Part shown: one piece after another, positions 2,464 through 62,135 of the stretch
Position numbering within the stretch: position 1 is the stretch's first letter
How the letters are laid out: each line of letters opens with the position of its first letter
Made by a program: the position numbers and the translations under genes
Origin: Squalus acanthias
Lineage: Eukaryota
NCBI GenBank assembly: GCA_030390025.1
Contig: CM059432.1
Location: 40,054,001 to 40,118,000 of the forward strand
Length of the DNA stretch: 64,000 nucleotides
Direction: 5' to 3'
The notes under the pieces: model-generated
What the model was told of the DNA's origin: nothing
Database searches by the model: none
The model's input: only the letters and a program-made list of their open reading frames with translations

Positions 2464-3983
2464 CAGCATATCTGAACTAGAAGGACAACTACTAAAAATG
2501 GCCAAAAGGAAAATAAAATAACTATGGAAACAGCCTGAGCAGTTCTGTAGCAACATGAATGCCCAAATGGGAAGCTATGTGCTTTTTAACCTCGTATACT
2601 ATTTAACTGCAAAATACATCTCTAATTATCAACAGCAGCAAGCTGCAATATCACTTATTGGAATATGATTGTTTTAATAAATAAGAGAGTTTGAATATAT
2701 AAGAGTTTAGCTAAAGAACTACCTGCATTTATTTTATATAGTATTTTCTTACTTTAAGCAAACCCTTTTAAGTTTTCTTTTTTGTCCTGTGTTTTTTTTC
2801 TCTCTTTAGATCCCTGCACACAACCAATGCATTCTCAGCTGAGAGAAAAGGTGGGCAACTTGCTCCCAGATCTCGGACAGTGCCATTCTACTGTGAGCCG
2901 TGGAGCCTCACCCTCCAAATTTACTTCCTTGTGGGGATTTGCTCATTTTCTGTTGACCCTCTCTTTCTTACGGACAGTCCAGTGGAGATTAAGGACTTGC
3001 TGTGTGAGGGACAATGGGGATAGATTCACATCCAACCATTCTTTGGTGCCATTTGTTGAACTGGCGAGCTATGCCACCAGTCTCCATTAATTATTTCTTA
3101 GGTTCTTCAGTTTTTTGAAGCAGAAACAGTGTCCACAAATAGCTACTTGTGCTTCAAAAGACTCGAGCCGCTCCGCCAAAAAGCCACATAGACTTTCAGT
3201 ACAAGATATAATAGATCAATTGATTAATCATTTCATTCATTTAGTAACGGAAGATTTTACACTGCACTTTTTGTATTTAAGATAGTATCTGACTATTATC
3301 TGAATTTATGTTTATAAATTATTGGGAGGGTAGAGGTGGGAGTGATGCTCAATACTATGAGTTGGCCTGTTTCAAATTTACCAATGTAACACTTTGCTCT
3401 CACCAACGTACGCGGCCCCTTTAAATTTCCTGCACAGTATCTCTTCCAGCGGCAGGAGCTGGTGAGCGGCCTGTGCACGACCTCGCGATTGGTGCGCGAC
3501 CATGTGGCTGCGCACCTTAGGGGGAACATCGGTGTGCAGTCCTCAATAGCTCACCAAAATTTGTTAAGTGGCCCTCCAGCCCAAATAATTGCCCACCCCA
3601 GTCTAAAAAAAATAGGAGAGAATTAATCAGGACATAAATCTCCCCAATTTCCCAGCCACCATCACTCCTTTATGTATGATATCAGGGTATTAACTATACT
3701 AAGTACTCTCAATCTGGCTGGCTGCGGGTGGGAAACAGGTTTCCCATGCAAATCAGGCCCTACCATTAAATTCGGCAGGGCCAGTGTGAAACCTGTTCTC
3801 TCGGGTTTCCCGACTGCTTCCAAACCACCCCGCTCCCAACTTGCCTCCTGATTAAAATTCAGGCCAGCATTTCTTGATGCTATCAATGCTCAGTAATACC
3901 AACAAATAAAAATACTGAGAGATGTCCCCTGGAAGCAGCTAGTGTATATTACTGATACCAGCATAACCATATCACCAACAGTC

Positions 3984-21030: not shown

Positions 21031-22130
21031 AAGTTCCCAAGTACAGCTTCAGAAGAATATCGCTTATTGCACTGATGTGAATTTTTGAATGCCCCCACCA
21101 AATCAGAGCAATTTATGCTGAATTACGAGCAGTTTTGTGCTGCAGCCTCACATTCACCAAGAACTGTCCCAACCTGTTTGATGCAAGACCCTCATGGTTA
21201 GGACAGGGGAGATTTTCACCCCCAAGTCTGGACTGAATTTAAACACAGGTCCCAGGGGTAAAGAGCATTCTCTCCATCTCGCCTTACACTTCACAAATAA
21301 GTGCCAAAGTTCAAAAGACTATTAAAACCTAAATGTAATTGGAGACCTCATGGCACAAGAGTTTTAAGGGAATTGTTCTCATTGCAAAATAATTAAGATA
21401 TATAAACATAGCTGACTAACTGCAGCCTAAATGATCAGATTATTCTTAAAGCATTTGATTTTATTCTTGAATTCCAGTATTACCCACAATAACTTTTATT
21501 TAAAAAAAAAAAGAGAAAACCTCAGCAATAGTTGAATTAGGAAAGATGATATAATAAGAAAGTAGAACTCCTGGACTCTGGTGCCAAGCAGATGTTCTAG
21601 CTGTCTACACAGTAGAAAAGAAAATCTATACTTTGCCACGGTGGCTGAGGAATTATTTCTGCCTATTAATGTGATGCAACAGAAAATTCTCTCTCCATAC
21701 AAGTACCAAAATGCTCCAAAAAGCTAACCGCAAAAAAAAAAAGCTTTTTTTTGGGCAATCAAGTTTCTATTTTACTGGGGGGAAAAAGGCAGGTGACACG
21801 TCTTCTTTTCCATTTCCAAATACAGCTCAACTGTAGCCATCGTCCTTCAGCCTGGGTGCAAAGTTAACACTGTGGACACCTTGAAATCTCCATGACTGAC
21901 TAAAATAGCTAACAGGAAATGCACAGCTTCCCAATCTAATTGCCTCTCTTCTTTATTAGCTGAGATTATCTGTGAGCAAAGGGTGCTCCATCTAGTGGCA
22001 TAGCAGAACAGGTGACAATCAACTATGGAGTGATGGGCACCAGGCCAACTAATGGTCTGTAGCGATTAGTAATGTCAGAATACTGGGCTAACTTGGCTTC
22101 AAAGTACTTAAATAACAAAAGTATACTTAC

Positions 22131-22187
22131 CCGTTCATCAATAATTCTCAGAAACCATCGCTTGGTCAGCTTGTGTTTTCTTACTGC
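22131..22187 (-). CDS. NDUFAF6: NDUFAF6 exon 4 (AVRKHKLTKRWFLRIIDER)
   Basis: 57 bp, tag|...CGG|gtaagt; LTKRW..IIDER. Confidence 0.95.
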
Positions 22188-22413
22188 CTATTAAATAATA
22201 GAATATCAGAACTACTAATAAAGGCACCATTTTGTTTGCTCATTTAGATTTTCCTATTCTAAAATGCTCTACTATAATGTAGATGAACGCACAAGATTTG
22301 ACAATTTTCCCAAAACAATACGCACTAATGCTGAATTAGCCAAATCTATAATAACAACAGAAAACGCTGGAAAAACTCAGCAGGCCAGGCAGCATCCGTG
22401 GAGAGAGAAAGAG

Positions 22414-22450
22414 AGTTGACGTTTCAGGTCGATGACCTTTCATCAGAACT
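22414..22450 (-). ncRNA. Minimal type I hammerhead ribozyme (copy 1)
   Basis: agtt-CTGATGA-a-aggtc(atc)gacct-GAAAC-GTC-aact: core, helix II, palindromic helix III, helix I. Confidence 0.75.
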
Positions 22451-22654
22451 GGGAAGAGCTGGAAGAGCCAAACGGAAATCCCGTCGAAGAGAAGAGCAGA
22501 ACTTCTTCAAGGTAGGCATTCCAAGAAGAGAGGTGGCAGTGAACCAAACACTAATACGATAGCAAAATACTGCAGATGCTGGAAATCCGAAATAACAACA
22601 GAAAACGCTGGAAAAACTCAGCAGGCCAGGCAGCATCCGTGGAGAGAGAAAGAG

Positions 22655-22691
22655 AGTTGACGTTTCAGGTCGATGACCTTTCATCAGAACT
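22655..22691 (-). ncRNA. Minimal type I hammerhead ribozyme (copy 2)
   Basis: Identical to copy 1, 241 nt away. Confidence 0.75.
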
Positions 22692-25600
22692 GGGAAGAGC
22701 TGGAAGAGCCAAACGGAAATCCCGTCGAAGAGAAGAGCAGAACTTCTTCAAGGTAGGCATTCCAAGAAGAGAGGTGGCAGTGAACCAAACACTAATACGA
22801 TACACAGGCTAAAATCTTAAGAAATATGAAGTAAACTATCTATTTAACATATTAAATATATTATGGCGGCACCACTTGGCTTCCTGCAGTCATGTTTTTG
22901 TCACACTTTGTGTCAACTATGTCCACCTTTAATTTGTCACGTTGCAATGACACAATTTACCCACTGGATGGCTATGAGCCAAATGTGTGAATTGCTTCTC
23001 CCAGCTTGGACACCATACTGGGTCTTCACAAAGTGATTTCTCTTCACAAGCAACTTTGCTTGAAAACTTTTAAATTTATTATTCCCAGCTTTTATTGTTA
23101 TTGATTAAATATTGTGTTTCATCCCTGCAGGCTTTAAAGATGTATTTGCTTTATATGTTTGAAGAATTCAGCTCCTACCTGCCCACAGTTCTAGCACTGC
23201 ACTCGCCACCCTTCATGCCTCCCACTATTGTTGTCACTGTCACCCGTTACCGACCACCATGGCTTCCCCCAGTGAGCTGGCCTGCCGTTCTTCCAAATGC
23301 TATTTCTGCCCCTCTCACCATTTGGCCGCAAATCTAGACTTCGTAGCCCATTGTCTGGCAGCAGTGTTCCCAACCTCACCCACTGGTCAGTAAGCAGAAG
23401 CCCGGTTCCTGCCGCACAGCACAAAAAGAATTGGTGGAAGAAAGCAGATATGGGTCACTACAAACTTATGCCAGTTGGAGCAGTAAAGGTAATACCTACA
23501 TGACATGGAAGATAAAAGAGCCTAAAAAATTAAAACAGCTAGAAAAAAAGAGCACAAGGGGAATTGAAGTAGGAAATTAATACCACCCCCTCACGAGCAA
23601 GTAGCAACATGATGTATAGCTCTGGCTGGAGTAGTTTGAATTTGGAACGAGTGTCCCTTGATGCCCAGTGAAACTTGCATTCCTTCTCACTTTTCTGATG
23701 TTCTAGGAATTGGCTAATCCAAAGAAAATAGCTACATTTTATTTATGGGTCTGAATAAAGGTGCTACTGGATGCAGTACTGTTATTTTTATGCTGAGCAA
23801 CGAGTGAGGGTACAGCAACTCAAACTTCAGACAGATCTGAACTGAATGCAGTGCAGTAATTCACAACAACATAATATCTGCTATGTTCTTTTATTCTCAC
23901 CATCAGACTCACTGGAGACTTTAAAAAAAATAGCATTTACTTAACAATTTTTTGGGCTGTCAAATATCCCAAGGTAGTTAGCGAACAATTACATGATTTC
24001 TCCTTTAAACGTATGTGAAAAAAGAGGCCACTACGTGGAAGCTAATGTCTAAAGTTTCTGCTCCTGACAAGATTTATAGCCAGCAAAGTTATTCACCTGT
24101 TGAATTCCCTGTTGGCAACCTCTGTTCACCCAAGGTTTAGACCACACCCAGTATCTGAGAAGAGCACACAATGGGAAAACTTAATATGCTAAGCAGCAAC
24201 CTGTTCTTCACACAGCAAAAGGCAGCAGTTTAAAAGACTTCTTGTGTCATTGGCTGATGTTGAGAGAATGAAAGAAAGCCATTTGCTGTCAAACTACCGT
24301 TCAACATATTTTAATAAAAGGTTTTTTTTTTTTTACATGGAATCCACAGCACAGAAACAGGCCATTCGCCCCCACTGGTCTAGGCCGGTGTTTATACTCC
24401 ACACGAGCCTCTTCCCACCTGCCCCCATATCCCTCTATTTTCTTTTTCCTCCTCAAGAATGCATCAAGCCTCCCCTTAAATGCATCAATGCCCTCTGCTT
24501 CAAACATTCCAAGCGGCAGCGAGTTCCACATTCTCACCACTCTATGTAAAAAAAATCCTCAGAAATTATTTATTTTATAAAGAAAAGTTTTGCACTGCGA
24601 GCTGATGTTAGGGTAAAGAAAGACAAAACAATTGCTCATTTAGAGAAGATTTTAAAAAATTCCAGAAGTGTATCTAAAGATGACCATGTGGGGGAGTACT
24701 TGGCTGACATTTAAAGAAAAATACAGTTGTGCCTAGCATGACCGTCAATTTTCACCTTAGATTAGTCATTGATTAGTGTAGGTAAGTTTGATCACTCGAT
24801 CAGAACACACTTTAATTATCTATTGGAAATATTGGCTCATCAGGGTCCCACCACTTGCCATCCTTCATAGCAGAAGCAGTGTTTAGAAAGAAGTCATTCT
24901 GAAGAAGCCCAGTGTGCATCGGTTTGCCCCCACAGTGCACACAAATTCTTGCCCAAATGTCCCCAATAATTAATTTTACTGATAATGTTGGCTCACAAAT
25001 GTCAACATTGTGAATCGGAAGCAGAAGTCCAGATCAACGGGTTTTGCTCTCAAAGGAACAGAATGTGAAGACTGGTTTCTTCTGTACTGCTTCAATCTAA
25101 AAAAAAGCTGAGAATCCCTTTCACAAGAAGTTTTTTTTTGCTCATTCACTTGCAATGTGAACAGTGGCTGATCACTTACAGGTATTGATTTCAGTGCAGC
25201 TCCAGCTAAATAAAGTTGGAGTTGTGTGTGCAGTTTTGGTGAGCCATAAAGACCAGAAAGGTCCTGGTTCAATCCTCATTCTAAGCATAAATTATACATC
25301 TTCCTCCATATTTCAGCTGATAGCAAGTACTTTATACCATCTGTTAATGAAATGTTAACAGTCAGGATACTAGACATCTTCTACTTCAAAAACTATTTTA
25401 TCTACATGAAAGCTGATTTTTTTTAATGGTTTATGGACACTGGACCATTATGAAATTGATCAATGATAGTTATAATTATTCAGAAGTCATGCATGTCATA
25501 ACCATGTCTCAATGTTGTATTACCATCTAGTGATACGATTCTGCCTCATACTAGAACAGTGTGAATCTCCATAATCTGTCACTCAGAATTAATAATACAA

Positions 25601-52725: not shown

Positions 52726-53999
52726 TTGACTAACATTCACTACAAGCCCACTGACTCCCACAGCTACCTGGACTACACTTCCTCCCACCCCGCCTCCTGT
52801 AAGGACTCTATTCCATTCTCCCAGTTTCTCCGTCTCCGCCGCATCTGCTCTGATGATGCCACCTTCCATACCAGTGCTTCCGACATGTCTTCCTTTTTCC
52901 TCAACCGAGGATTCCCCTCTACCGTGGTCGACACGGCCCTCGACCGTGTCCGTTCTATCTCCCGCACTTCTGCCCTCACCCCTGCCCCTCCCTCCCGGAA
53001 CCACGATAGAGTTCCCCTTGTCCTCACCTTTCACCCCACCAGCCTCCACATTCAACGGATCATCCTCCGCCATTTCCGCCACCTCCAGCGTGATCCCACC
53101 ACCAAACACATCTTCCCCTCACCTCCCCTTTCAGCATTCCGCAGGGACCGCTCCCTCCGCGACACCCTAGTCCACTCCTCTACCACCCCCAGCACCCCTT
53201 CCCCTTCGCCCGGCACCTTCCCGTGCACGCGCAGGAGATGCTACACATGCCCTTACACCTCCCCTCTTCCCACTGTCCAGGGCCCCAAACACCCCTTCCA
53301 GGTGAAACAGCGATTTACTTGTACTTCCTGCAATTTAGTATACTGTATTCGCTGCTCACGATGTGGTCTCCTCTACATTGGGGAGACCAAACGCAGATTG
53401 GGTGACCGCTTTGCGGAACACCTCCGTTCAGTCCGTAAGGGGGACCCCGAGCTCCCGGTGGCCTGTCACTTTAATTCACCGCTTCACTCCCACTCTGACC
53501 TCACCGTCCTCGGCCTATTACACTGTTCCACGGAAGCGCAGCGTAAGCTCGAGGAACAGCACCTCATCTTTCGTTTAGGCACGCTACAGCCCTCTGGACT
53601 CAATATCGAGTTCAACAATTTTAGATCATAACCTCAGCTCCAATTACATTTATATTTTATTTTTTCATCCCTTTCATTTGCCCCCCCCACCTTTTTTTTC
53701 CTCCTAGAAGCTGGCAGCTGTCCTTCATTCTGCCAGTGGATTTCACACTTCTTTCAGCCTTAATCTGTCACATTAACACCACCTCTAGCCTTGCATATCT
53801 CTTAATGTCTCTTCATCTCCCCCTTTGTTCTTTTATCCCCTCCCCCTTTTCCCAGCTTTACTCTGGCCTTAAATCTATTTGATTTCCGGCTCTTCACAGT
53901 TCTGATGAAAGGTCATCGACCTGAAACGTTAACTCTCTTTCTCTCTCCACGGATGCTGCCTGGCCTGCTGAGTTTTTCCAGCGTTTTCTGTTGTTATTT
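52726..53999 (+). mobile_element. Penelope-like retroelement, 5'-truncated, with GIY-YIG domain, 3' UTR and hammerhead
   Basis: ORF 52726-53631 ends GLNIEFNNFRS*; direct repeat tagtgtttt at 52719-52727 and 54000-54008; interrupts a CR1. Confidence 0.92.
53898..53934 (+). ncRNA. Minimal hammerhead ribozyme in PLE 3' end
   Basis: agtt-CTGATGA-a-aggtc(atc)gacct-GAAAC-GTT-aact. Confidence 0.7.
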
Positions 54000-54678
54000 T
54001 AGTGTTTTATACAGTTCAAGCATAGCCTCCCTGCTCTTATATTCTATGCCTCAGCTAATAAAGGAAAGTATGCCTTCTTAATCACCTTATCCACCTGCCC
54101 TGCTACCTTCAGGGATCTGTGCATATGCATTTCAAGATCCCTCTGTTCCTCTACACTTCTCAGTATCCTACCATTTATTGTTTATTCCCTTGTCTTGTTA
54201 GCCCTCCCCAAATGCATTACCTCACACTTCTCCAGATTGAATTTCCATATGCACTCCTGACCTTGATATCTTCCTGCAGTCTACAGCTTTTCCTCACTAT
54301 CAACCAATGGACAATTTTTGTATCATCTGCAAACTTCTTTATCATGCCCCCTACATTGAAGTCTAAAAGATTGATTGATATATACCACAAAAAGCAAGGA
54401 ACCGAGTACTGAGCCCTGCGGAACCCCACTGGAAACAGCCTTCCAGTCACGAAACCAACCGTTGATCATTACCCTTCGCTTCCTGCCACTGAGCCAATTT
54501 TGGATCCAACTTGCCACTTTCCCTTGGACCCCATGGGCTTTTACTTTTCTGACCAGTCTGCCATATGGGACCTTGTCAAAAGCCTTGCTAAAATCCATGT
54601 AGACTACATCAAACGTGCTACCATCATCAACCCTCCTCAAAATTCAATCAATTTCGTCAGACACGACCTTCCCTTAAC

Positions 54679-60199: not shown

Positions 60200-62135
60200 A
60201 ACATAACACAAGAATATAAGAAATAGGAGCAGGAGTAGACCATTTGGCCCTTTGAGCCTGCTCTGCCATTCAATAAGATCATGGCTGATCTTCCACCTCA
60301 TCTCCACTTTCCTGCACTATCCCCATATCCCTTGATTCCCTTAATATTCAAAAATCTATCGCTCTCTGTCTTGAATATACTCGACGACTGAGCCTCCACA
60401 GCCCTCTGGGGTAGAGAATACCAAAGATTCACCAACCTCTGAGTGAAGAAATTTCTCCTCATCTCAGTCCTAAATGGCCGACCCCTTATTCTAAGACTGT
60501 GACCCCTGGTACTAGACTCCCCAGCCAGGGGAAACATCCTCCCTGCATCTACCCTGTCAAGTCATATAAGAATTTTGTATGTTTCAATTAGATCACACCT
60601 CATTCTTCTAAACTCTAGAGAATATAAATGAGAAGTCGCACAACACCAGGTTATAGTCCAACAGTTTTATTTGAAATCACGAGCTTTCGGAGCGCTGCTC
60701 CTTCGTCAGGTAAAGTGAAGGAATACAAATCAGCAAAGCATATATAGACAGTTCTCTGTCTATATATGCTTTGCTGATTTGTATTCCTTCACTTTACTTG
60801 ACGAAGGAGCAGCGCTCCGAAAGCTCGTGATTTCAAATAAAACTGTTGGACTATAACCTGGTGTTGTGCGACTTCTCATTTTTGTCCACCAGTCCAACAC
60901 CGGCATCTCCGCATCTAGAGAATATAGGCCTAGTCTACTCAATCTCTCCTCATAGGACAATCCCCCCCATCCCAGGAACCAGTCTGGGGAACCTTCGTTG
61001 CACTCCCCCCTATGGCAAGTATATCCCTCCTTAGGTAAGGAGACCAAAACTGTACACAATACTTCAGGTGTGGTCTCACCAGGGCCCTATATAATTGCAG
61101 TAAGACGTCTTTACTCTTATACTCAAATCCTCTTGTACTGAAGGCCAACATACTAATTGCTTGCTGTACCTGCATGTTAACTTTCAGTGATTTGTGTACA
61201 AGGACACCCAGGTCCCTCTGAACACCAACATTTCCCAATCTTTCACCATTTAAAAAATACTCTGCTTTTCTATTTTTCCCTACCAAAGTGGATAACCTCA
61301 CATTTCTCCATATTTATATTCCATTTGCCATGTTCTTGCCCACTCACTTAGCCTGTCTATATCCTCTTGAAGCCTCCTTGCATCTTCCTCACAACTTACA
61401 TTTCCCACCCAGCTTTGTATCATCAGCAAACTTGGATATATAACATTTGATCCCCTCATCCAAATCATTGATGTAGATTGTGAATAGCTGAGGCCCAAGA
61501 ACTGATCTTTGCGGTGCCCCATTAGTTACAGCCTGCCAACCCGAAAATGACCTGTTTATTGCTACTCTCTTTTCTGTCTGTAACCAATCCTCAATCCATG
61601 CGAGTATATTACCCCCAATCCCATGAGCCCTAATTTTGTTTAATAACCTCTTGTGTGGCACCTTATTGAATGCCTTCTGAAAATCCAAATACACCACATC
61701 CACTGGTTCCCCCCTTATCTATTCTGCTAGTTACAACCTCAAAAAACTCGAACAGATTTGTCAAATACGATTTCCCTTTCATAAATCCCTGTTGACTCTG
61801 CCCAATCCTATTATTTTCTAAGTGCCCTGTTAACATGTCTTTAATAATAGATTCTAGCATTTTCCCTACTACTGATGTCAGGCTAACTGGTCTGTAGTTC
61901 CCCATTTTCTCTCTCCCTCCTTTCTTAAATAGTGGGGTTACATTTGCCACCTTCCATGACGCAGGAACCATTCTAGAATCTATGGAATTTTGGAAAATGA
62001 CAACCAATGCATCCACTATCTCTATAGCCACCTCTTTCAAAACCCTAGAATGTAGGCCATCGGGTCTAGGGGATTTATCGGCTTTCAATCCCATTAATTT
62101 CTCCAGTACTATTTTTTTACTAATACTAATTTCTT
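60200..62135 (-). mobile_element. CR1-clade LINE, 5'-truncated (contains the foldback insertion)
   Basis: KSPRPDG, NYRPVSLTS, KFADDT, CR1 tail. Confidence 0.9.
60627..60913. mobile_element. Inverted (foldback) PLE-terminus insertion carrying hammerhead motifs of a second family
   Basis: 126-bp arms 60626-60751 and 60756-60881 with 1 mismatch; TSD tctagagaatata at 60614-60626 and 60914-60926; CTGACGA-a-ggagc(agc)gctcc-GAAAG-CTC. Confidence 0.75.

What the first reader, a model, noticed from the sequence alone, without database searches (positions are those of the whole stretch)
22350..22802. Retrozyme-like cassette: identical 241-nt tandem with two intact hammerhead ribozymes, sense inside NDUFAF6 intron 3
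Seen: two identical units with a period of 241 bp. On the minus strand each reads agtt-CUGAUGA-a-aggtc(atc)gacct-GAAAC-GUC^aact, a full hammerhead core with the favoured GUC triplet; predicted cuts fall after 22659 and 22418. Helix III is the loop-less palindrome ACGU. The unit has no RT; it is the PLE 3' end (as at 53885-53998) plus a short ATG frame (MPTLKKFCSSLRRDFRLAL) joined through a repeated ctcttcc. It ends about 160 nt upstream of the exon 4 acceptor, on the gene's strand. Known: minimal PLE hammerheads of this form cleave as dimers, and short hammerhead-bearing tandems (non-LTR retrozymes) give circular RNAs in some metazoans. Inference: an internally deleted mini-PLE copied as a concatemer. 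Host transcription would supply the dimer and could release a 241-nt monomer or circle, or cut the pre-mRNA. I cannot confirm whether this family has been described in sharks.
Basis: partly seen in the sequence, partly recalled or inferred. Interest (0 to 1): 0.82.

Follow-up and report, generated by a model that had tools for sequence, protein, structure and literature searches.

The report
One-off Penelope mini-tandem with hammerheads
This is a young 453-base insertion, found at this one place only, made of 1.9 copies of a short ribozyme-bearing piece of an active jumping gene; dozens of similar inserts with their own joins lie elsewhere in the genome, and they were likely each copied afresh from a small RNA circle, which would show how 'retrozymes' are born rather than a gene-control device.

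Summary
The tandem is real: 22350-22802, period 241, 1.9 copies, two minimal GUC hammerhead motifs, sense in intron 3 of an NDUFAF6-type gene. The unit is the stretch -43..+197 (from the hammerhead cut) of an intact 3.2-kb Penelope-like element of this genome, closed through a 3-nt overlap (TTC). Its join occurs at this locus only, and the site is empty in contigs of three public runs, so it is neither a retrozyme family nor a conserved intronic ribozyme. The wider result: 39 of 81 sampled loci are such mini-units, with 31 different joins among 35 mapped. Joins repeat exactly within an array and in both arms of inverted inserts, recur on different parental subfamilies, show microhomology and favour CpA ends. 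Best reading: each array is reverse-transcribed in one insertion event from a short, likely circular, fragment of the parent RNA; the rival is telomerase-like end-to-end jumping. Cleavage and circles are untested. A 2026 preprint already derives vertebrate retrozymes from Penelope ends (one cartilaginous fish included); per-locus origin was not found in print. Earlier scan notes describe this genome's hammerhead element and similar arrays in other genomes, not this census.

The parts
22350..22802 (-). Whole insertion: 1.9 passes of a 241-nt unit (parent coordinates +98..+197, -43..+197, -43..+68; 0 = C of the GUC triplet)
   Evidence: 100% to the natural copy L053 except +85 C>T, the commonest allele among full-length copies
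22703..22802 (-). 5'-truncated first pass (+98..+197), start region of the parent reading frame
22462..22702 (-). One complete unit, identical to a contiguous 241-nt stretch across the parent's pLTR/ORF junction
22350..22461 (-). Last pass (-43..+68), ending at the family's first preferred 3' end (inferred reverse-transcription start)
   Evidence: two start sites shown for a lizard element in PMC11167929
22702..22705 (-). Join 1 (+197 to -43) with 3-nt overlap TTC; the ORF side ends at a CpA
22461..22464 (-). Join 2, identical to join 1; found nowhere else in the assembly
22655..22691 (-). Minimal type I hammerhead motif 1; predicted cut after 22659
   Evidence: the same 37 nt occur 3,028 times in the genome
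22414..22450 (-). Minimal type I hammerhead motif 2; predicted cut after 22418
22562..22590 (-). Penelope 'tail' (+69..+97) between the two preferred 3' ends, present once
   Evidence: tail described in PMC8557442 and PMC11167929
22421..22684 (-). 87-codon frame from the ATG inside the hammerhead core: 74 parent codons plus 13 out-of-frame ones; no sign of use
22131..22187 (-). Host exon of 57 nt (exon 4 of the NDUFAF6-type gene by recalled human exon sizes)
   Evidence: covered at depth 13-19 in run X6 (RNA by guess) where most of the flanking intron has none
26617..26739 (-). Host exon of 123 nt (exon 3), upstream border of the host intron
52726..54002 (+). Ordinary 5'-truncated copy of the parent family (endonuclease end, 3' UTR, GTT-type hammerhead)

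Best explanation
The insert is 1.9 copies of a 241-base piece of an active Penelope-like retrotransposon, likely copied in a single insertion event by that element's reverse transcriptase rolling around a small RNA circle, and it likely does nothing for the host gene. Shown: the unit equals parent positions -43..+197; the join is private and repeated exactly; the 3' end is at the family's usual +68; the site is empty in other alleles; 39 of 81 sampled loci have the same build. Inferred steps: (1) a parent transcript spanning the pLTR/ORF junction, with the hammerhead uncut or re-ligated, is trimmed to the 200-400-nt region that the element's protein is thought to bind; (2) the ends, often at CpA on the ORF side, are joined into a circle; (3) the protein nicks AT-rich DNA, starts inside the RNA at +68 or +105 and goes round one to five times, sometimes from both DNA ends; (4) most products would be dead ends, though those with two hammerheads could seed a true retrozyme family.
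For: Unit is a contiguous parent stretch. 31 distinct joins among 35 mapped loci; 4 of the 39 mini loci were dropped as complex. Seven loci's joins counted genome-wide lie at 1, 2, 2, 2, 6, 1 and 1 loci. In 6 of 6 sets of loci that share a join, members carry different parental alleles, so joins recur independently. The join is identical in every pass in 19 of 20 sampled multi-pass arrays (the other has one substitution at the same join) and in both arms of 7 of 7 inverted arrays where both arms cross it. L066 repeats a four-piece mosaic unit, one join at the hammerhead cut, twice and partly in its inverted arm, at one locus only, which needs a covalently joined template. ORF-side ends lie at +166..+269, never earlier, in line with the first 172 nt of the frame being needed in vitro (PMC11167929). 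CpA ends: 15 of 31 against 6.1 expected (p 1.2e-4, post hoc). 3' ends at +64-72 or +99-110 in 39 of 44, as in ordinary copies (64 of 65).
Against: No RNA circle or cleavage was observed; only contigs were available. Microhomology at the joins (28 of 31 with at least 1 nt; mean 2.0 against 0.85) is what template jumping or DNA repair predicts, not blunt RNA ligation, unless a nuclease cuts both ends at like sequence; the 3'-UTR side shows no CpA bias (5 of 31 against 4.6). Two of the six shared-join sets differ at one site only, and three loci with +207/-130 share the commonest haplotype and may be a small family. About half of the mini loci (19 of 39) cross the join once and fit a plain internal deletion. 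Source copies missing from this assembly cannot be excluded. The filled allele was not shown in any run.
Confidence: 0.5

Rival explanations
1. No circle: the reverse transcriptase stays bound to one short linear RNA, copies to its 5' end and jumps to its 3' end through a 1-3-nt overlap, again and again, like telomerase repeat addition or the bacterial DRT2 enzyme.
For: Microhomology excess holds with one join per 3'-UTR site (22 sites, mean 2.1, 0 of 50,000 draws). Fixed RNA ends would also give identical joins in all passes and both arms. Penelope enzymes are sister to telomerase (PMC8557442); DRT2 makes concatemers from a linear template (PMC12039810, passages); a faint product primed at the template 3' end was seen in vitro (PMC11167929). 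L096 switches between two subfamily templates within one array.
Against: No untemplated bases or shifting registers between passes in 19 of 20 arrays. The four-piece mosaic of L066 would need four jumps repeated in order.
Confidence: 0.25
2. It belongs to a propagating retrozyme family: a source tandem self-cleaves, circularises at the hammerhead and spawns daughters, and the source of this copy is missing from the assembly.
For: 24 of 39 sampled mini loci hold two or more same-strand hammerheads; the model is established for canonical retrozymes (PMC7229834, Discussion); insertions here are young and can be absent from an allele; three +207/-130 loci share a haplotype.
Against: Join found at one locus; 31 joins in 35 loci; shared joins sit on different parental alleles in 6 of 6 sets; the L066 array has lost both helix I strands and still formed; none of the 81 loci has a 5' end at +1.
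Confidence: 0.1
3. DNA events after insertion: a partial-tandem element lost about 3 kb by microhomology-mediated deletion and the remnant was then duplicated locally, the satellite-birth route suggested in the 2026 preprint.
For: Microhomology fits DNA repair; such deletions of Penelope copies are reported (PMC3846280, passages); single-join loci need nothing more.
Against: Break points of all 35 mapped loci crowd into +170..+269 and -34..-423 of a 3.2-kb element; inverted arms with their own 3' ends share the join (7 of 7); arrays are non-integer and end at the normal 3' ends; the two passes here show no divergence.
Confidence: 0.1
4. The hammerhead pair is used by the host, cutting or tuning the pre-mRNA of the NDUFAF6-type gene as proposed for conserved intronic hammerheads of amniotes.
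For: Sense orientation, 162 nt before an acceptor, GUC triplets while about 93% of family read depth has GTT.
Against: Empty site in two runs labelled as one organism and in a run of a related organism; 3,028 identical cores genome-wide, so an intronic sense copy is expected by chance; active fold disfavoured by 17-20 kcal/mol.
Confidence: 0.03
5. The second pass is an assembly artefact.
For: The two passes are identical, and no contig bridging the join was shown.
Against: Chromosome-scale contig; the tail occurs once, between the passes, as the parent's order demands; 20 other sampled arrays with other periods have the same build.
Confidence: 0.02

Closest known systems
Vertebrate non-LTR retrozymes as Penelope derivatives (Li, Clavereau, Pollet, bioRxiv 10.64898/2026.07.22.740005; abstract to discussion read, supplements closed)
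   Same: Tandem of two or more hammerhead units homologous to a pLTR; one cartilaginous fish was surveyed, with mean consensus 363 bp, close to the median of about 350 nt here.
   Different: They cluster repeats into families at 90% identity and suggest local DNA amplification of a terminal repeat; joins are not analysed in the text read. Here the parent is mapped base by base and nearly every locus has its own join. Their supplements may list this species or family.
Non-LTR retrozymes of coral, mussel and axolotl (Cervera and de la Pena 2020, PMC7229834; passages and Discussion read)
   Same: 150-450-bp tandem with type I hammerhead, proposed rolling-circle copying by a Penelope enzyme.
   Different: Those have canonical hammerheads with loop-loop contacts, cleave fast, form high-copy families and are shown as abundant circles. 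This one has a minimal motif, one locus, and no RNA evidence.
Endonuclease-bearing Penelope-like elements with minimal hammerheads (PMC4209133, parts 1-2 of 4; PMC11167929, parts 1-2 of 4; PMC8557442, passages)
   Same: Parent L053: single frame with reverse transcriptase and C-terminal GIY-YIG, hammerhead in the pLTR, start codon about 25 nt before the cut, two 3' ends about 35 nt apart, tandem and inverted insertions. Its CX4CxxC linker points to the Neptune/Nematis type.
   Different: The insert lacks about 2.95 kb of the element and repeats only the junction region.
Non-autonomous Chlamys elements such as MRC1 (PMC8557442, passages)
   Same: Short Penelope derivatives that insert as multicopy head-to-tail arrays.
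   Different: They are propagating families without canonical hammerheads; here joins are mostly private.
Conserved intronic hammerheads of amniotes, such as the one in RECK (PMC6155905, passages)
   Same: Type I hammerhead in a host intron.
   Different: Those are single, canonical and conserved across species; this is a young insertion absent from other alleles.

Membership tests
Non-LTR retrozyme | Tandem repeat of 150-450 bp with a type I hammerhead motif in at least two consecutive units | tested here: met
   the preprint's -5 kcal/mol filter was not applied
Non-LTR retrozyme | Canonical hammerhead with 6-bp helix I and loop 1-loop 2 contacts (2020 definition) | tested here: not met
   4-bp helix I, loop-less helix III, no Rfam hit; the 2026 preprint admits minimal motifs
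Non-LTR retrozyme | Dispersed family: the same unit at many loci | tested here: not met
   join at 1 locus; other tested joins at 1-6 loci, on discordant parental alleles
Non-LTR retrozyme | No protein coded; depends on an autonomous element | tested here: met
   only an 87-codon remnant; intact parent at L053
Non-LTR retrozyme | Self-cleavage to monomers and accumulation as circular RNA | not testable with these tools
   contigs only; folding disfavours the active dimer
Endonuclease-bearing Penelope-like element (parent L053) | One frame with reverse transcriptase and C-terminal GIY-YIG endonuclease | tested here: met
   RVT_1 E 2.2e-5 and GIY-YIG E 5.6e-4, both under Pfam's curated cut-offs; 971 aa, no stop
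Endonuclease-bearing Penelope-like element (parent L053) | pLTR with hammerhead, tandem or inverted insertions, 30-40-nt tail | tested here: met
   period 3198-3199; inverted loci and two 3' ends
Neptune clade | CX2-5CxxC linker between reverse transcriptase and endonuclease | tested here: met
   CX4CX2C visible in the translation; shared with Nematis (PMC8557442)
Neptune clade | Placement in the reverse-transcriptase tree | not tested
   no reference set was fetched
Domesticated intronic hammerhead | Conserved at the orthologous site across species | tested here: not met
   contigs of X1, X6 and X7 leave the stretch at 22347-22349 and run on for 755, 124 and 1585 other letters

The most novel reading that the evidence does not exclude
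Penelope enzymes routinely turn short fragments of their own RNA into tandem DNA in one step, either by telomerase-like repeat addition on a 200-400-nt linear template or by rolling on circles stitched from trimmed RNA, with no need for a working hammerhead. One genome then holds a hundred or more independently born proto-retrozymes, and retrozyme families are the rare ones that go on to spread.
Probability: 0.45. Interest if true: 0.78.

Novelty: new variant of a known kind. Interest (0 to 1): 0.5.

Why it matters
How animal retrozymes arise from Penelope elements, and whether Penelope elements copy from circular RNA, are open questions in the papers read. This genome offers many independent, dated-by-identity events with an intact parent at hand. 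The join spectrum gives sharp predictions (which RNA ends should exist, circle or linear) that the published in vitro assay for a Penelope enzyme can test directly. The single locus matters little for the host gene.

Tried and rejected
Rfam scan of the window: no hammerhead family at E<=1. Folding the 453-nt insert: no more stable than shuffles (z +1.09). Back-splicing as the source of the join: no GT/AG at the window's join or as a rule at the others. Join through the repeated ctcttc: seen at L051, not here. A gapped-pattern count of all joins could not be run on this genome, so genome-wide numbers are extrapolated. TC bias in overlap tracts: 17 of 21 against 8.1 but only 5 of 8, p 0.04, once hot spots are merged; kept as weak. 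Base-pairing that brings the two join regions together in the parent RNA: none above 0.5. A held-out set for the CpA test: 60 further regions gave no new mini-unit (2 gave no alignment), so the test stays post hoc; one independent join (L148) is at a CpA. Run X5 covered 14 of 30 bins and says nothing about the site; X6 is RNA by guess only; no contig bridging the private join was listed. Target-site duplication: none visible, and the empty allele's letters were not returned. Lunse et al. on dimer cleavage is not held and is known here only through PMC6765202.

Full report
OBSERVATION. The repeat is at 22350-22802, period 241, 1.9 copies, 100% matches; 212 nt occur twice and 29 nt once. Both passes carry the minimal hammerhead motif on the minus strand with C17 at 22659 and 22418. 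Rfam finds no hammerhead. The host is an SQS_PSY-family gene on the minus strand (weak atlas lead NDUFAF6) with exons of 100, 123, 57, 103, 134, 102 and 57 nt; these sizes match human NDUFAF6 exons 2-8 from my recall, not from a call. The insert lies between the 123-nt and 57-nt exons, 162 nt before the acceptor.

PARENT. A 49-nt anchor from the unit matches 841 places in the 3.7-Gb genome at up to 2 mismatches, and the exact 37-nt core 3,028 places. L053 holds a head-to-tail array of period 3198-3199 with a 971-codon frame that starts at the ATG inside the hammerhead core and matches RVT_1 and GIY-YIG below their cut-offs. This is an endonuclease-bearing Penelope-like element; its cysteine linker suggests Neptune or Nematis (PMC8557442, passages; no tree made). 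Numbering from the cut (0 = C of GUC), the insert reads +98..+197, -43..+197, -43..+68. The unit is thus one contiguous stretch of the parent's pLTR/ORF junction, closed through TTC. Its only difference from L053, +85 C>T, is the commonest allele among full-length copies.

PRIVATE AND YOUNG. The 40-nt join matches twice in the genome, both times here. Of four runs laid on 21500-22582, three give a contig that follows the intron to 22347-22349 and then continues with other letters: X1 (755 more), X6 (124 more), both labelled organism A, and X7 (1585 more), organism B. A contig entering this high-copy repeat would be expected to break, so I read these as empty alleles; the letters beyond were not shown. 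X5 did not cover the site. No run was shown to hold the filled allele, although X1-X5 hold 0.88-0.90 of the stretch's words.

CENSUS. I took the first 100 exact matches listed (contigs C1-C6), which fall in 81 loci. 39 are mini-units, 39 run on into the reading frame and 3 are neither. Four mini loci with complex joins were dropped; the other 35 show 31 distinct joins, ORF side +170..+269, 3'-UTR side -34..-423, unit length 205-680 nt, median about 350. Anchored on the hammerhead instead, 5 of the first 100 exact cores lie in mini-units, at 4 loci (2 of 60 fetched regions gave no alignment), so minis are about 5% of young copies.

JOINS ARE REMADE, NOT INHERITED. Genome-wide exact searches put the joins of seven loci at 1 (window), 2, 2, 2, 6, 1 and 1 loci. 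In 6 of 6 sets of loci sharing a join, members differ at sites that also split the full-length copies into subfamilies; two sets differ at one site only, and three of the six +207/-130 loci share the commonest haplotype. L148 (GTC core) and L084 (GTT) share +222/-128 as a seventh case. Overlap at joins averages 2.0 nt against 0.85 for random pairs (0 of 20,000 draws; holds with one join per site). ORF-side ends allow a C|A register in 15 of 31 against 6.1 expected at matched overlap (p 1.2e-4); 6 of 7 CpA sites are touched against 6 of 20 other C sites (p 0.016), and the window uses the seventh. This test was framed after seeing the data, and the 3'-UTR side shows no such bias.

ONE TEMPLATE PER ARRAY. 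In 19 of 20 sampled arrays with two or more passes the 16 nt around the join are identical, and the twentieth differs by one substitution; both arms carry the same join in 7 of 7 inverted arrays where both cross it (3 sampled, 4 picked by likeness to the window or by join). L066 repeats a unit built of four parent pieces, one join at the hammerhead cut and both helix I strands lost, and is found once. 3' ends fall at +64-72 or +99-110 in 39 of 44 mini ends and 64 of 65 ordinary ends, matching the two internal start sites and tail shown for a lizard element, which also needs the first 172 nt of its frame and inserts without hammerhead cleavage (PMC11167929, parts 1-2 of 4). None of the 81 loci has a 5' end at +1.

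MECHANISM. I commit to a small covalent RNA circle made from a trimmed parent transcript and copied in one insertion event (0.5). Repeated end-to-end jumping on a linear RNA explains the overlaps better and the mosaic worse (0.25; analogues in PMC12039810, passages). Together these single-event readings hold 0.75. A propagating family with a missing source (0.1), DNA deletion plus duplication (0.1), host use (0.03) and artefact (0.02) remain. Circle, trimming, ligation and cleavage are all inferred.

WILL IT CUT? Forcing the double-hammerhead fold costs 17.2 kcal/mol in the insert and 19.9 with intron flanks, and helix III has probability 0.0; the model lacks tertiary and Mg2+ terms and had no positive control. 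Published minimal motifs cleave weakly as dimers (PMC4209133, parts 1-2 of 4; PMC6765202, passages), 1 of 9 frog dimers cleaved (10.64898/2026.07.22.740005), and the lizard motif needed protein (PMC11167929).

KNOWN AND NEW. The 2026 preprint (parts 1-3 of 5 read; supplements closed and may list this species) already finds retrozymes in one cartilaginous fish and derives them from pLTRs; PMC7229834 (passages, Discussion) proposes rolling-circle copying. So the kind is known. It works like a retrozyme insertion but fails the dispersed-family test. Searches gave no paper listing that describes per-locus joins or their recurrence on different subfamilies; subscription journals and Repbase were not covered. 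Earlier scan notes describe this genome's hammerhead element and ready-made arrays in other genomes; they are unchecked and were read after my census.

VERDICT. The locus is an ordinary young insertion with no sign of host use. The population it belongs to is a new variant of a known kind and makes the origin of retrozymes testable. Interest 0.5.

Noticed in passing
L066 (G000:C3:119164700-119167900), 1193-1813: 257-nt unit made of four parent pieces, including 68 nt from mid-frame and a join at the hammerhead cut; repeated and partly present in an inverted arm; single locus.
   Followed up: yes
L096 1470-2996: Four identical joins, but the 3'-most pass carries alleles of another subfamily (-42G, GTT) than the three passes before it: a switch between two RNA molecules or later conversion.
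   Followed up: partly
L053 896-10000: Head-to-tail array of full-length elements with at least two unbroken 971-codon frames; the frame opens at the ATG of the hammerhead core, 25 nt before the cut, as reported for the lizard element.
   Followed up: partly
L053, parent positions -33..-21 and +284..+297: Predicted helix (probability about 0.8) that would hide the hammerhead's 5' strand in full-length RNA; all mini-units mapped stop before it.
   Followed up: no
window 26796-27658 (-): 863-nt piece of the same family's frame, 99% identical to 52726-53588, without 3' UTR or hammerhead, ending about 56 nt before the exon 3 acceptor.
   Followed up: no
window 60626-60881: 256-nt self-complementary stretch (97.7%) at an inversion point inside another repeat.
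   Followed up: no
window 22418, runs X1, X5, X6, X7: About 93-97% of family contig depth reads GTT rather than GTC at the cut triplet, so GUC marks a young minority subfamily.
   Followed up: no
G000:C316:7023-9167: Two SQS_PSY matches in open frames of 496 and 416 codons without introns; possibly a bacterial contaminant contig.
   Followed up: no
window 22441-22452 to 22552-22561, runs X1, X5, X7: Many contigs join the tail end (about +98..+107) to the start of the hammerhead region (about -23..-34), with 21-27 letters on the short side: perhaps a class of still shorter tandems in older subfamilies.
   Followed up: no
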